64,000 bases of DNA, from the NCBI RefSeq assembly GCF_003991155.1, contig NZ_CP031293.1. One strand, written 5' to 3'. Each line of letters begins with the position of its first letter. Position 1 is the first letter of the stretch. The notes below the pieces were generated by a model. The model was not told the origin of the DNA. It saw nothing but the letters and a program-made list of their open reading frames with translations, and searched no databases. The stretch is from Escherichia coli. Its GTDB lineage: Bacteria; Pseudomonadota; Gammaproteobacteria; Enterobacterales; Enterobacteriaceae. A program made the translations under genes and the position numbers. Below are positions 8,044 to 12,232 of the stretch, in pieces.

Positions 8044-8754
8044 CTACAGATTAATGATGAGGTCTACGGCCTCAAATCGCCAATATTCAATATCTATCTG
8101 GACAATATTGCCCTGCTGGTCGGCGCGATGCTTTTCAATTAAGATCGCTGGCATACCCGCAGAACCGCCAAGATACTTGCTGATATCGCCCGGCATTCTG
8201 ACGGGTTTGAAAATCAATTTTTTTACTACCGTCTCTTTTTGGTAGCACTTTTCCCAGACTGCAGAAAATGAGTGGTTTTCAAGTTGTTCAATAAAACCCG
8301 GGGCAACTTCAGGATTAATATATGTTTCGTGATAGAAAACTTTATGTCCTTCCAGCGCCCCCCAGCCGGTGATGCGATAGAGTTCAGTTGATGGTGTCAC
8401 TGCAATCAGTGGCGCGAGCGTCTCGGGAATATCGCTGGTACGGTTTTTCTCGGTAAACCCCCAGGAAGGCTCTCGTCCTTGCTCAATTGCGGCCCGCTGA
8501 AAGCTCGCTGACAGCTCCGGACTGTAATTAAATCGCGGCTGGGTCACGAACCACCCCTTACGATCCTTACGGAAGATTTTGGATTCTGCCTCGAGGTTCA
8601 ACAACGCCTGGCGCAGCGTCATACGTTTAATGCCCAGCAGTTCTCCCAGCTCTCTTTCTGAAGGGAGTTTTCCACCCGGCGTGGTGATGCCATCTTTCAA
8701 CCACCGATCCAGTTTCTCTTTTGCATTTTCTACGGTGGATTGATTCTCCGCCAT
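8044..8754 (-). CDS. yihL: GntR-family transcriptional regulator
   Basis: 236-aa ORF with N-terminal wHTH motif (ERELGELLGIKRMTLRQAL) and C-terminal effector domain. Confidence 0.85.
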   Translation of the reverse strand: MAENQSTVENAKEKLDRWLKDGITTPGGKLPSERELGELLGIKRMTLRQALLNLEAESKIFRKDRKGWFVTQPRFNYSPELSASFQRAAIEQGREPSWGFTEKNRTSDIPETLAPLIAVTPSTELYRITGWGALEGHKVFYHETYINPEVAPGFIEQLENHSFSAVWEKCYQKETVVKKLIFKPVRMPGDISKYLGGSAGMPAILIEKHRADQQGNIVQIDIEYWRFEAVDLIINL

Positions 8755-8932
8755 TGTTTAATCCTTTTGGTTTAAACCAGATGAAGCATCTTACGCTTAC
8801 GCCAAAAAAGAAAGCAATTAACGGTGTATGACTTTGCAGATAATTGTGACAAAGCTCTCTATTGACGTAATCACAGACTTATAAGGGAGATACTCGCATT
8901 GGTGTGCGCTCACGACAGGTAAAAAAAAACCT

Positions 8933-8944
8933 GCCAGCGATGGC
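8933..8944. repeat. Target-site duplication (left copy), gccagcgatggc
   Basis: Exact 12-bp direct repeat flanking the IS at 8933-8944 and 10371-10382. Confidence 0.8.
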
Positions 8945-10370
8945 TAATGCCAGTCAGTTAAGCAACTGACTGGCTCTTTTTCGGGGCTGTGGGGTATTTC
9001 CAGGGCCTCTCCTTTACCACTCTCGGGAAGGCCCTTTCCCTTCTTGTCGGTAATTTCACAAGTTGTCCCATACTTGCAAGATCGCGCATCAGCTCCGGTA
9101 TACGTCCCGGTGAAGCGCCCTGCAATGTCATCAGCATTCTCATCACCATTCCGCATGATTCTGAGAAACTCAGTTGATTCGGCCAGTAACCTTTCAGATG
9201 TTCCGCCATTTTAATCATCTGATATCTCACCAGATTATAAGCCAGTAAGACACCCCACAGCTCTTGCTCCACAAGCTCCGGTTTTTTACTTCTCAGCGTC
9301 AGCCTGCTCAGTTGCATCGTCTGTTTTATCTCCCTGTATCCCAGTTCGATTTCCCAGCGATGACTGTACAGATCCGCCATTTCTCCTCCGGGGAAGCGCA
9401 TGGCGTCCGTCATCGACGTCAGCAGATGGCAGACTTTTCCTTTGCGCGTCACGGTCAGCAGGCGGGCTGTCACTTCATTTCCCAGTCCCGGCCACTTTTT
9501 TCGTGCCTGCGGGCTGGTTTTCAGCTTCACCAGATGATCGCCTTTACCCAGTTTTCTGATCTCTTCATATTGCGCTCCCTTTCTGAGAGGTATCATCCAG
9601 TGGCGGTGTTCTCCCGCCAGGCTCCAGGCATTTAACAGTCCCAGTGAGTAATAACCTTTATCCATTAACGTCAGAGTGTTATCGCCGGTTTGTTCTATAA
9701 GTTGCTCAGCAAGCTCATTTTCGCTGTTCTTCATCGTGCCGAAGGCTGCAGCCGTCAGCAGATGGCTGGTCAGTTCCATCTGGCAGACCATTTTGACCTG
9801 CGGGTAGAGCGCCGGGTTCCCGGCATGTGTCTGGCGGGGGAAGGCTGCATCGTTCTCTGGTGTATCCGGTGTGCGCCAGAACACACCATCGATGGCCAGC
9901 AAGGTCAGGCCGCACCAGTGCGGATGCGGCGTGGCGTTATGCCAGAGCTGCGCTGTTTTCGTGAACACGCGGCGGACAGCCTCACTTCCCAGGCGCTGGC
10001 GGGCCTGAATAACGGCACTGGGGGCAACGAAGGGGCGATTGCCCGGCAGCATGATGTCCAGGCGATTCACAATCTGGTGAAGAGGTTCTTTACGCTCAAG
10101 CGCCATGCCAACAATACACCAGACCATCATTTCGAGGGGAAGACGGCGCTTGCGTAGCGTTACAGTACCTGATTCGGCAAGGCAACGAGAGATGAGTTCG
10201 GGGTCGAGGTAATCCCCCAGAGAAGTCAGTGGGTTACGCAGAGAATCGTAACGGGATACCAGATCAAGAGCCTGTCCAATGTGCATAAAAAAATCCGGAA
10301 ACAAGTGAGCGTTTCCGGATTCTTACACAGCCACTGGATCGGTCAACTGATCCTTAACTGATCGGCATTA
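8945..10370 (-). mobile_element. IS4-type insertion sequence, 1426 bp, apparently intact
   Basis: Single long transposase ORF; imperfect terminal inverted repeats TAATGCCAGTCAGTTAAG (left) and CTTAACTGATCGGCATTA (right, i.e. TAATGCCGATCAGTTAAG in reverse complement); flanked by 12-bp direct repeat; length matches IS4 as recalled. Confidence 0.85.
8958..10286 (-). CDS. insG: IS4-family (DDE) transposase, 442 aa
   Basis: ORF 8958..10304 (track start is TTG); first ATG gives [16 protein letters not shown]...; sequence recognised as the E. coli IS4 transposase. Confidence 0.85.
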
Positions 10371-10382
10371 GCCAGCGATGGC
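10371..10382. repeat. Target-site duplication (right copy), gccagcgatggc
   Basis: Identical to 8933-8944. Confidence 0.8.
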
Positions 10383-10408
10383 AGGTTTTTTATAACTAAA
10401 AAACGAAA

Positions 10409-12232
10409 TTAATCGTCTTTCGGTGCGCGGTTGGCGCGACGACGATCGTTTTCCGTCAGGTGACGTTTACGAATACGGATAGAGGTCGGAGTCACTTCTA
10501 CCAGTTCGTCATCATCGATGAACTCCAGAGCTTGTTCCAGAGTCATGCGGATAGGCGGAACCAGAACAACGGCTTCGTCAGTACCGGAAGCACGCATGTT
10601 GGTCAGTTTCTTACCGGTCAGGCAGTTTACAGTCAGGTCGTTAGAGCGGCTGTGAATGCCGATAATCTGACCTTCGTAAACTTCTGCACCGTGACCGAGG
10701 AACAGCTTACCGCGGTCCTGCAGACCGAACAGCGCGAACGCTACCGCTTTACCCTGACCGTTAGAGATCAGTACGCCGTTCTGACGCTGACCCACTTCAC
10801 CCGGACGTACGTCGTCGTAGTGGCTGAAGGTGGAGTACAGCAGACCAGTACCGGAAGTCATGGTCATGAACTCAGAACGGAAGCCAATCAGACCACGGCT
10901 TGGGATCACGTAGTCGAGACGTACGCGGCCTTTACCGTCTGGATTCATGTTTTTCAGGTCGCCTTTACGTTCGCCCAGCGCCTGCATCACAGAACCCTGA
11001 TGCTGTTCTTCAACGTCCAGCGTCACGTTTTCATACGGCTCTTGTTTACGACCGTCGATTTCACGGAAGATTACTTTCGGACGGGATACCGCCAGTTCGA
11101 AACCTTCACGACGCATGTTTTCAATAAGAACAGACAGGTGCAGTTCGCCACGACCAGAAACGCGGAACGCATCGGCGTCTTCGGTTTCTTCTACGCGCAG
11201 CGCAACGTTGTGTACCAGTTCTTTGTTCAGACGATCCAGGATCTGACGAGACGTTACGAACTTACCTTCTTTACCGCAGAACGGCGAGGTGTTAACGCAG
11301 AAGAACATAGAAACGGTCGGCTCATCAACGGAGAGTGCCGGCAGCGCTTCAACGTTTTGCGTGTCGCAAACGGTGTCAGAAATGTTCAGTTCGCCCAGGC
11401 CCGTGATCGCCACGATATCGCCAGCTTCCGCCAGATCGGTTTCAATACGTTCCAGACCGAGGTGGCCCAGCACTTTACCGACTTTCGCGTTACGGGTTTT
11501 GCCTTCGCTATCGATGATAGTGACCTGCTGGTTCGGCTTCACTTTACCGCGCTTGATGCGGCCAATGCCGATAACGCCAACATAGCTGTTGTAATCGAGC
11601 TGAGAAATCTGCATCTGGAACGGACCGTCAAGGTCAACGTCCGGCGCAGGAACGTGGTCAACAATCGCCTGATACAGCGGGGTCATGTCTTCCGCCATAT
11701 CTTCGTGGTCCAGACCCGCGATACCGTTCAGCGCAGAAGCGTAAACGATCGGGAAGTCCAGCTGCTCGTCGGTCGCGTCGAGGTTAACGAACAGATCGAA
11801 TACCTGATCCACAACCCAATCAGGACGCGCGCCAGGGCGGTCAACTTTGTTGATAACAACAATCGGCTTCAGGCCGTAAGCAAACGCTTTTTTGGTTACG
11901 AAGCGCGTTTGCGGCATCGGGCCGTCAAATGCGTCAACCACCAGCAGCACTGAGTCTACCATGGACATTACACGTTCAACTTCACCACCGAAGTCGGCGT
12001 GCCCCGGGGTATCAACGATGTTGATACGGTAATCATTCCATTTGATAGCGGTGTTTTTCGCGAGGATGGTAATCCCACGCTCTTTCTCCAAATCGTTGGA
12101 GTCCATCACGCGCTCTTGGGTTTCGGCACGAGAGTCGAACGTACCGGATTGTTGGAGCAGCTTGTCTACCAGGGTGGTTTTACCATGGTCTACGTGCGCG
12201 ATGATGGCGATATTACGCAATTTTTCGATCAC
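10409..12232 (-). CDS. typA: Ribosome-associated translational GTPase BipA/TypA
   Basis: 607-aa ORF, N-terminal G-domain [13 protein letters not shown]-like domain architecture. Confidence 0.95.

What the first reader, a model, noticed from the sequence alone, without database searches (positions are those of the whole stretch)
10286..10323. Hairpin plus U-run immediately upstream of the IS4 transposase start codon
On the transposase strand the sequence GAATCCGGAAAC-gctcactt-GTTTCCGGATTTTTTT runs directly into ATG CAC ATT (MHI...). A terminator-like structure inside the IS end, abutting the start codon, would block or attenuate transcription entering from outside (here from typA) and may occlude ribosome binding. 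This looks like built-in insulation of transposase expression. The ORF track's TTG-extended start lies inside this hairpin and is probably not used.
Basis: partly seen in the sequence, partly recalled or inferred. Interest (0 to 1): 0.35.

Follow-up and report, generated by a model that had tools for sequence, protein, structure and literature searches.

The report
IS4 left-end terminator hairpin shielding transposase
A conserved RNA hairpin plus U-run just before the IS4 transposase start codon most likely stops and silences transcripts entering from the neighbouring gene typA, whose own terminator this IS4 copy split; this is a well-known kind of transposon self-protection, so the finding is real but fairly ordinary.

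Summary
On the minus strand, GAATCCGGAAAC (10322-10311) pairs with GTTTCCGGATTT (10302-10291). A run of seven T (10293-10287) follows and abuts the ATG at 10286. The element is canonical E. coli IS4 (1426 bp, 8945-10370). It sits inside the intrinsic terminator of typA, flanked by a 12-bp duplication.

In 21 IS4-subgroup relatives (34-100% transposase identity) the hairpin, T-run and ATG are all kept while the stem sequence turns over. Nine of 12 pairs show changes on both sides, and 0 of 500 shuffles reach the observed values. In all 21, the best sigma-70-like site (TTGAMC, 16-17 nt, xAxAAT) has a -10 box that overlaps the base of the 5' arm. The element's own mRNA should therefore lack that arm, and only transcripts from outside should fold.

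The TTG start is not conserved.

The mechanism is of a known kind: the IS200 left-end terminator combined with IS10/IS50 fold-back inhibition.

Two side findings:
- These elements insert almost always at the apex of terminator-like hairpins.
- IS4 also carries an inward-facing hairpin at its right end. That hairpin coincides with a published Term-seq 3' end in K-12.

Interest is modest.

The parts
8945..10370 (-). Complete IS4 element, 1426 bp
   Evidence: Both terminal inverted repeats were found. The element differs from K-12 IS4 at 5 of 1426 nt. RefSeq names the gene an IS4 family transposase. Precomputed Pfam domains on homologues are PF01609 and PF13006.
10353..10370 (-). Left terminal inverted repeat, TAATGCCGATCAGTTAAG
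8945..8962 (+). Right terminal inverted repeat, TAATGCCAGTCAGTTAAG, read inward
10371..10382 (-). Left copy of the 12-bp target duplication GCCATCGCTGGC. It holds the loop and upper stem of the typA terminator.
   Evidence: the empty site exists in other genomes
8933..8944 (-). Right copy of the 12-bp target duplication. It is followed by AGG and nine T, the 3' half of the former typA terminator.
10341..10346 (-). Predicted -35 hexamer TTGACC, flanked by GATC sites at 10352-10349 and 10340-10337
   Evidence: It belongs to the only sigma-70-like site found in 8700-10700. TTGAMC is kept in relatives.
10319..10327 (-). Predicted extended -10, TG-T-AAGAAT. The hexamer 10324-10319 overlaps the base of the hairpin's 5' arm.
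   Evidence: the geometry is the same in all 21 relatives
10311..10322 (-). Hairpin 5' arm GAATCCGGAAAC. The predicted native transcription start, about 10314-10310, falls inside it.
   Evidence: The start site is inferred, not mapped.
10303..10310 (-). Hairpin loop GCTCACTT. It holds the TT of the non-conserved TTG codon.
10291..10302 (-). Hairpin 3' arm GTTTCCGGATTT, including the Shine-Dalgarno-like GGA at 10296-10294
10287..10293 (-). Run of seven T (U-tract of the terminator), directly abutting the start codon
   Evidence: Five of the seven T are invariant, and the other two at least 90% conserved, in the 20 close relatives. A run of 5-8 T, interrupted once in L071 (TTTTCTT), is present in all 21.
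8958..10286 (-). Transposase gene insG, 442 codons plus stop, starting at ATG 10286
8949..8982 (+). Right-end inward-facing hairpin GCCAGTCAGTT-aagc-AACTGACTGGC, then TCTTTTT-C. It is formed by the right inverted repeat and the 3' end of the ORF.
   Evidence: A Term-seq 3' end lies at the equivalent K-12 base, 4502127(+), which is window 8982.
10409..12232 (-). typA, the upstream gene on the same strand, whose terminator was split by the insertion

Best explanation
The hairpin with its U-run is a transcript-specific insulator built into the left end of IS4.

RNA polymerase arriving from outside (here from typA, whose own terminator this copy split) transcribes both arms. The RNA then forms an 11-15 bp stem followed by seven U, which is an intrinsic terminator ending at or just before the AUG. 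Any RNA that escapes termination still holds the GGA ribosome-binding bases and the AUG in the helix, so it is poorly translated.

The element's own promoter (TTGACC, 16 nt, TG-n-AAGAAT) has a -10 box that is itself the A-rich base of the 5' arm. Transcription therefore starts inside that arm, at about 10314-10310. The native mRNA lacks the 5' arm, cannot form the hairpin, is not terminated, and has an open U-rich leader with an accessible GGA-N7-AUG.

Shown here: the structure, its conservation with compensatory changes, the T-run and ATG adjacency, the conserved overlap of promoter-like site and stem, and the destroyed host terminator.

Inferred: actual termination, occlusion of the ribosome-binding site in vivo, and the position of the transcription start.
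For: - Structure and energy.
- Terminator class: the site is found by my own scan. A discriminant in the style of d'Aubenton-Carafa gives +6 to +24. That is higher than the right-end hairpin (+0.9), which has a mapped 3' end in vivo.
- Conservation: all 20 close relatives keep the hairpin. Relatives at 34-53% identity keep the hairpin, T-run and ATG with unrelated stem sequences.
- Covariation on alignment A3: 98.4% of cells paired, 9 of 12 pairs changed on both sides, 27 such cells, and 0 of 500 shuffles reach these values. Controls with the 3' partner slid by 1-3 columns give 3-4 such pairs and 4-7 cells.
- Strand: 19 G-U cells would be A-C mismatches on the other strand, and the T-run is conserved only on the sense strand. 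Both point to a sense-strand RNA.
- Promoter: the only sigma-70-like site in 2 kb has the same geometry in all 21 sequences. The -10 ends 2-3 nt inside the 5' arm. A start 7 nt downstream leaves 2-3 nt of that arm, and the hairpin-region energy goes from -14 to -21 kcal/mol up to between 0 and -2.6.
- Accessibility of the ribosome-binding bases and AUG.
- Context: the typA terminator is split, the remnants are non-functional, and no other terminator lies between the typA stop and the hairpin.
- Precedents: the IS200 left-end terminator (PMC4513863) and 5' terminators of IS elements in general (PMC2965389).
Against: - No transcription start for insG and no 3' end at this hairpin could be found in the datasets I could reach.
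- In K-12 the left end faces the divergent gene nanX, so the published Term-seq data cannot test it.
- The stem is only moderately G+C-rich (5 G-C pairs). Part of the U-run can pair with the A-rich -10 region, which may lower termination efficiency.
- RNAs that start inside the 5' arm are still predicted to pair the GGA region weakly with downstream coding sequence (unpaired probability about 0.2-0.3).
- Alignment A3 was fitted to the model's structure, which inflates the pair counts somewhat.
- The close relatives alone gave only one pair changed on both sides.
Confidence: 0.7

Rival explanations
1. Self-attenuator. The native transposase promoter fires upstream of the hairpin, so most of the element's own transcripts also terminate at the U-run. 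The hairpin's main job would then be to keep transposase synthesis very low.
For: The terminator abuts the ATG with no leader in between. Promoter prediction is only a consensus match. Very low transposase expression is typical of IS elements.
Against: Only 48 nt lie between the IS tip and the stem. The single promoter-like site there has its -10 inside the stem in all 21 relatives. K-12 Term-seq lists no 3' end in the insG 5' region, although insG is fully covered by one transcriptional context in both M9 and rich medium in SMRT-Cappable-seq. This is weak negative evidence.
Confidence: 0.12
2. Translational control only. The hairpin mainly sequesters the ribosome-binding bases and AUG in read-through RNA, as in IS10/IS50 fold-back inhibition. 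It would terminate little, and the U-run would serve as spacer or as a U-rich translation enhancer.
For: The GGA and AUG are buried in read-through RNA. The stem has modest G+C content. Part of the U-run can pair with the A-rich 5' flank. The stock terminator scan did not flag the site.
Against: A run of 5-8 T directly after the stem is kept in all 21 sequences, with one interruption in L071 (TTTTCTT). The terminator score is higher than that of the right-end hairpin, which does give a 3' end in vivo. The Burkholderia and Ralstonia relatives place a hairpin plus T-run about 100 nt upstream of the ATG, where it cannot occlude the ribosome-binding site.
Confidence: 0.1
3. DNA-level element. The palindrome would be a binding site for transposase or a host factor, or a cruciform or target-like decoy used in transposition, and would not act as RNA.
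For: It is subterminal, about 48 nt from the tip. IS4 targets palindromes flanked by A and T tracts, and the hairpin has that general shape.
Against: The stem sequence turns over completely while pairing is kept, so no protein-binding motif is conserved. G-U pairs work only on the sense RNA. The fixed adjacency to the ATG and to the -10 box is not explained. The stem-loop is 26 nt between the A and T tracts, against 17-19 nt in real targets.
Confidence: 0.05
4. Chance inverted repeat with no function.
For: None beyond the general frequency of short palindromes.
Against: z = -5.8. Markov controls average 0.4 raw hits per 64 kb, against 19 in the real window. The hairpin is conserved with covariation across 21 lineages.
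Confidence: 0.01

Closest known systems
[quoted passage not shown] 1999, as summarised in PMC4513863)
   Same: A terminator inside the left end, upstream of the transposase gene, protects against impinging transcription. RNA structure also hides the ribosome-binding site. The element's own transcription starts downstream of the terminator's 5' arm.
   Different: IS200 uses two separate hairpins (nt 12-34 and nt 69-138), with the start site at about nt 40 between them. It belongs to an unrelated transposase family (Y1/HUH). In IS4 a single hairpin appears to do both jobs, and the -10 box is embedded in its 5' arm.
IS10 and IS50 fold-back inhibition of read-through transcripts (Davis, Simons and Kleckner 1985, cited in PMC2965389; details from my own knowledge)
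   Same: They belong to the same IS family in the broad sense. An inverted repeat near the left end has a 3' arm covering the translation start. The native start site lies between the arms, so only outside transcripts fold. Dam GATC sites lie at the promoter.
   Different: In IS10 and IS50 the structure blocks translation only and no U-run terminator follows the stem. The IS4 hairpin is followed by seven U, so it has terminator anatomy as well.
5' terminators upstream of transposase genes, the 'mobile attenuators' of Naville and Gautheret 2010 (PMC2965389)
   Same: This is the generic class: intrinsic terminators at the 5' end of an IS that prevent its expression when it is inserted in a transcribed region.
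   Different: The families named in the passages read from that paper (ISBma2, IS3/IS2/IS600, ISL3) do not include IS4. That paper does not describe promoter-in-stem geometry.
Mobile elements that home to intrinsic terminators or hairpins, such as class C group II introns and IS1272/IS1182-type elements (from my own knowledge; only the titles were seen)
   Same: Insertion at terminator hairpins, a relatively safe site at the ends of transcription units.
   Different: The integration chemistries differ. IS4 enters at the hairpin apex and duplicates 11-14 bp, and its recognition seems to be the spacing of the A and T tracts (AAA-N20-TTT).

Membership tests
IS4 (IS4 family, IS4 subgroup) | DDE transposase of the IS4 type in a single ORF | tested here: met
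   The ORF has 442 codons. Homologues carry precomputed Pfam domains PF01609 and PF13006. RefSeq names the gene 'IS4-like element IS4 family transposase'.
IS4 (IS4 family, IS4 subgroup) | 18-bp terminal inverted repeats beginning -AATR, and an element length of about 1400-1650 bp | tested here: met
   TAATGCCGATCAGTTAAG and TAATGCCAGTCAGTTAAG lie at 10370 and 8945, giving a length of 1426 bp. This matches Table 1 of PMC2266710 and the K-12 mobile-element annotation.
IS4 (IS4 family, IS4 subgroup) | Target duplication of 10-13 bp | tested here: met
   The 12-bp direct repeat GCCATCGCTGGC flanks the element. The empty site was found in other genomes.
Intrinsic (Rho-independent) terminator | Stable stem-loop immediately followed by a U-rich tract on the transcribed strand | tested here: met
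   The stem is 11-15 bp at -15 to -18 kcal/mol, followed by seven U. The site is detected by my own scan.
Intrinsic (Rho-independent) terminator | RNA 3' ends generated at the U-tract in vivo or in vitro | not testable with these tools
   No dataset was available for a typA::IS4 strain. The K-12 left end receives no read-through on the same strand. The analogous right-end hairpin does have a Term-seq 3' end.
IS10/IS50-type protection from outside activation (fold-back inhibition) | Inverted repeat near the left end whose 3' arm covers the ribosome-binding site or start codon | tested here: met
   The GGA at 10296-10294 lies in the 3' arm and the AUG is 7 nt after it. Their unpaired probabilities are 0.01 and 0.14 in read-through RNA.
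IS10/IS50-type protection from outside activation (fold-back inhibition) | Native transcription start lies between the two arms, so native mRNA lacks the 5' arm | tested here: inconclusive
   This is predicted from a conserved promoter-like site whose -10 box overlaps the 5' arm in all 21 sequences. No mapped start site was found.
IS10/IS50-type protection from outside activation (fold-back inhibition) | Read-through transcripts are translationally silent | not testable with these tools
   This needs reporter fusions.
IS200-type left-end terminator | Terminator inside the left end that stops impinging transcription before the transposase gene | tested here: inconclusive
   The anatomy and conservation fit. 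Function was not assayed.

The most novel reading that the evidence does not exclude
IS4-subgroup elements may be terminator-swapping insertion sequences. Their transposase would home to the apex of intrinsic-terminator hairpins (AAAA-SSS-N11-14-SSS-TTTT), destroying the host terminator. The element would then make up for this, and shield itself, with inward-facing terminators at both ends. The left terminator would be fused to its own promoter: the -10 box is the terminator's A-tract, and the U-tract is the translation leader. Only self-initiated transcripts would then reach the transposase gene. Insertion would be nearly neutral for the host and safe for the element in either orientation.
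Probability: 0.45. Interest if true: 0.55.

Novelty: new member of a known kind. Interest (0 to 1): 0.38.

Why it matters
The finding explains how one of the first insertion sequences described can sit directly behind an expressed host gene without being switched on.

It shows a compact overlapping code. The -10 box is the A-tract of a terminator, and the terminator's U-tract is the leader of the mRNA.

It corrects a widespread automatic annotation, the 448-aa TTG start.

Together with the target-site survey, it suggests that IS4-like elements specialise in replacing host terminators with their own. This bears on how IS insertions rewire 3' UTRs and operon boundaries, and it could be tested directly by Term-seq in strains that carry typA::IS4.

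The principle of IS self-protection from read-through is already established, so the advance is incremental.

Tried and rejected
- Rfam scan of 8700-10700 at E <= 1: no match.
- The stock terminator scan did not list the hairpin, because it extends the stem into the T-run. I replaced it with my own scan.
- Close relatives alone (alignment A1, 20 sequences, 83% mean identity) gave only one pair changed on both sides and unimpressive shuffle statistics. More distant relatives were needed.
- Searches for a mapped insG transcription start or a 5'-UTR 3' end all failed:
  - Thomason 2015 is not held.
  - Kim 2012 supplements have no entry.
  - The SMRT-Cappable-seq operon table is cut, and only a transcriptional-context count for b4278 is available.
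  - Conway 2014 supplements are not held.
  - The Cappable-seq GTF is truncated.
- Searches for the original IS4 literature also failed. Mahillon and Chandler 1998 and Hallet 1991 are not held. Searches for Klaer and Mayaux returned nothing relevant. Statements about AAA-N20-TTT and about Klaer 1981 therefore rest on my memory.
- My regular expression for the right inverted repeat picked the wrong site in L022 and L070. For L070 I read the right end by eye.
- I considered and rejected that the hairpin is simply a remnant of a captured target terminator. It is internal to the inverted repeat, conserved with covariation, and longer (26 nt between the tracts) than real targets (17-19 nt).

Full report
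**What is there**

On the minus strand the sequence reads ...TGTGTAAGAATCCGGAAACgctcacttGTTTCCGGATTTTTTTATGCACATT.
- The 5' arm is GAATCCGGAAAC (10322-10311), the loop is GCTCACTT (10310-10303) and the 3' arm is GTTTCCGGATTT (10302-10291).
- Seven T (10293-10287) run directly into the ATG at 10286-10284.
- The hairpin with its U-run folds at -18.4 kcal/mol.
- The whole 99-nt left end folds at -38.9 kcal/mol, with z = -5.8 against dinucleotide shuffles.
- The stock terminator scan did not list it, because it extends the stem into the A-U pairs and so uses up the T-run.
- My own scan (stem of at least 9 bp, at least 4 G-C pairs, at least 6 T in the next 8 bases) places it among about 8 distinct terminator-class hairpins in the 64-kb window. 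Markov controls average 0.4 raw hits, against 19 in the real window.

**Identity and context**

The element is canonical E. coli IS4.
- It is 1426 bp long (8945-10370, minus strand) and has 18-bp terminal inverted repeats.
- It encodes a 442-codon transposase.
- It differs from the K-12 copy at 5 nt, none of them in the first 468 nt.

It is flanked by the 12-bp duplication GCCATCGCTGGC (10382-10371 and 8944-8933). Removing the element and one repeat rebuilds AAAAAACCTGCC-atcgct-GGCAGGTTTTTTTTT, a textbook intrinsic terminator 18 nt after the typA stop codon. This uninterrupted site exists at 100% identity in other E. coli genomes, and 4304 of 5426 genomes carry it. The identical typA::IS4 junction is present in many others.

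The insertion therefore split typA's own terminator at its loop. The junction remnants score far below the terminator threshold, at about -67, against +44 for the intact terminator. That discriminant formula is from my memory of d'Aubenton-Carafa 1990. typA and the transposase gene are on the same strand. typA transcription must now run into the IS4 left end, and the first terminator-like structure it meets is the hairpin under study.

**Conservation**

A scan of one genome per species returned IS4-like elements from many Enterobacterales. All 20 distinct left ends keep the hairpin, the T-run and the ATG. They are too similar to show much covariation, with only one pair changed on both sides.

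I then collected relatives at 34-53% transposase identity. They came from plasmids of Serratia, Pantoea, Shewanella and E. coli, an IncC plasmid from an uncultured bacterium, and a marine gammaproteobacterial MAG. These keep the same layout with unrelated stem sequences:
- ATCCGTAATCTC / GAGATTACGGAT
- ATCCGATGAC / GTCATCGGAT
- ATCCGGGTTCAG / CTGAACCCGGAT
- ATACCCTCAG / CTGAGGGTAT
- ACGGCTTCC / GGGAGCCGT

Each is followed by a run of 5-8 T (interrupted once in L071) and then the ATG.

On a covariance-model alignment of 21 sequences:
- 98.4% of cells pair.
- 9 of 12 pairs show changes on both sides, in 27 cells.
- No shuffle out of 500 reaches any of the measures.
- Controls with the 3' partner slid by 1-3 columns give 3-4 such pairs and 4-7 cells.

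The alignment was fitted to the structure, which favours it. The perfect stems are nevertheless plain in the raw sequences. Nineteen G-U cells, and a T-run conserved only on the sense strand, point to an RNA made from the transposase strand.

Two betaproteobacterial relatives (Burkholderia, Ralstonia) lack this hairpin. They have instead a hairpin formed by the left inverted repeat itself, followed by a T-run at the extreme left tip.

**How the element's own mRNA would escape**

The only sigma-70-like site in 8700-10700 is TTGACC, 16 nt, then TG-T-AAGAAT, at 10346 to 10319. Its -10 hexamer is the A-rich base of the 5' arm.

In all 21 sequences the best promoter-like match has the same geometry:
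- The -35 is TTGAMC, followed by GATC.
- The spacer is 16 nt (17 in one sequence).
- The -10 is xAxAAT and ends 2-3 nt inside the 5' arm.

A start 7 nt downstream of the -10 leaves only 2-3 nt of that arm in the RNA. The hairpin-region energy then rises from between -14 and -21 kcal/mol to between 0 and -2.6.

Partition-function folding gives these unpaired probabilities:

| RNA | GGA region | AUG |
|---|---|---|
| Read-through from typA | 0.01 | 0.14 |
| Starting inside the 5' arm | about 0.2-0.6 | 0.6-0.9 |

The transcription start is inferred. I found no mapped start.

**Most likely mechanism (confidence about 0.7)**

Transcripts from outside contain both arms. They form a terminator that ends them at the U-run. 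Any that escape keep the ribosome-binding bases and the AUG in a helix.

Native transcripts start inside the 5' arm, do not fold, and are translated from GGA-N7-AUG.

The rivals are self-attenuation of native transcripts, translational occlusion without real termination, a DNA-level role, and chance. They are listed separately with their tests.

**The TTG start**

The TTG at 10304-10302 sits at the junction of loop and 3' arm. It is CCG or TCG in most relatives, whereas the ATG is kept in 20 of 21. K-12 annotates insG from the ATG. PGAP's 448-aa product uses the TTG and is probably too long by six codons.

**Side findings**

1. Target sites. I rebuilt thirty-four distinct insertion sites of IS4-like elements.
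   - They give the consensus AAAA-SSS-[11-14 bp duplication]-SSS-TTTT, with T at +5 in 34 of 34 and A at -7 to -4 in 26-29 of 34.
   - About 28 of them are near-perfect hairpins with the duplication centred on the loop, which is the shape of an intrinsic terminator.
   - There is no orientation bias.
   - The resident K-12 site fits the tract spacing but is not a hairpin. Recognition therefore seems to depend on tract spacing, and terminators happen to fit it.
   - This agrees with the old AAA-N20-TTT rule (from my memory) and with the 'spectacular' target-arm specificity reported in PMC2266710. That paper never mentions terminators.
2. Right-end hairpin. The right end carries an inward-facing hairpin on the plus strand (8949-8974) followed by TCTTTTT.
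   - It is conserved in the clade at 62% identity or more.
   - Term-seq data from Adams et al. 2021 list an RNA 3' end at MG1655 4502127(+), antisense to insG, in two of three conditions. It lies at the C after that T-run, which is window 8982.
   - The same study lists a Rho-dependent termination region 49 nt further in.
   - This is experimental support that IS4 carries a working inward terminator at one end. The left hairpin scores higher on the same scale.
3. GATC sites. Three conserved Dam (GATC) sites lie in the first 35 bp and flank the -35.

**Comparison with what is known**

The mechanism combines two established ideas. One is the IS200 left-end terminator that blocks impinging transcription (PMC4513863). 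The other is IS10/IS50 fold-back inhibition, in which the native start lies between the arms (cited in PMC2965389; details from my knowledge).

Naville and Gautheret described 5' terminators of IS elements as a class, and the passages I read did not list IS4.

I could not reach the 1981 IS4 sequence paper or the 1998 review. I therefore cannot exclude that this hairpin was already noted there.

**Verdict**

The feature is real, conserved and almost certainly functional. It is a new, well-supported member of a known kind. Its novelty is modest and its interest is about 0.38.

Noticed in passing
window 8933-8944 and 10371-10382, with flanks 10383-10400 and 8915-8932: This IS4 copy sits in the loop of typA's intrinsic terminator, flanked by the 12-bp duplication GCCATCGCTGGC. 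The empty site is intact in 4304 of 5426 complete E. coli genomes. typA mRNA in this strain should therefore end inside IS4.
   Followed up: yes
L001-L076: 34 rebuilt insertion sites: IS4-subgroup elements in about 15 species insert almost always at the apex of hairpins flanked by A and T tracts. The consensus is AAAA-SSS-duplication-SSS-TTTT, with T at +5 in 34 of 34. This is the shape of an intrinsic terminator. There is no orientation bias. The resident K-12 site fits the spacing but is not a hairpin.
   Followed up: partly
window 8949-8982, plus strand: The right inverted repeat pairs with the 3' end of the transposase ORF to form an inward-facing hairpin followed by TCTTTTT. Published Term-seq data (Adams 2021, supplementary file 1) put an RNA 3' end exactly there in K-12, at 4502127(+). 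A Rho-dependent termination region lies 49 nt further in.
   Followed up: yes
window 10363-10360, 10352-10349 and 10340-10337, minus strand: Three GATC (Dam) sites lie in the first 35 bp of the left end, two of them flanking the predicted -35. They are conserved in most relatives, and the 51%-identity element L022 has five. This suggests methylation control like that of IS10 and IS50.
   Followed up: no
window 10302-10304; L001 1617-2963: RefSeq/PGAP annotates the transposase as 448 aa from a TTG inside the hairpin. The K-12 annotation and conservation both support the ATG and 442 aa.
   Followed up: yes
L005 and L006 (Pectobacterium aroidearum NZ_CP065044.1): The left flank of one copy matches the right flank of the other, and the reverse is also true. 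This indicates a chromosomal inversion by recombination between two IS4-like copies about 110 kb apart.
   Followed up: no
L073 (Burkholderia multivorans plasmid) and L074 (Ralstonia solanacearum megaplasmid), left ends: These relatives, at 36-37% identity, lack the hairpin next to the ATG. They have instead a hairpin made by the left inverted repeat and an inner complement, followed by a T-run at the extreme tip. The insulator appears to have been moved.
   Followed up: partly
L028-L056 (Kosakonia oryziphila REICA_142): At least 13 left ends and about 15 right ends of a 99-100% identical IS4 lie at contig breaks. This indicates a recent large expansion of IS4 in this genome.
   Followed up: no
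window 10287-10324, plus strand: Read on the opposite strand, the same hairpin is followed by TTCTTAC in E. coli and by TTTTTAC in many relatives. It may therefore also act as a weaker terminator for antisense transcripts leaving the element, making it bidirectional like the IS200 terminator.
   Followed up: no
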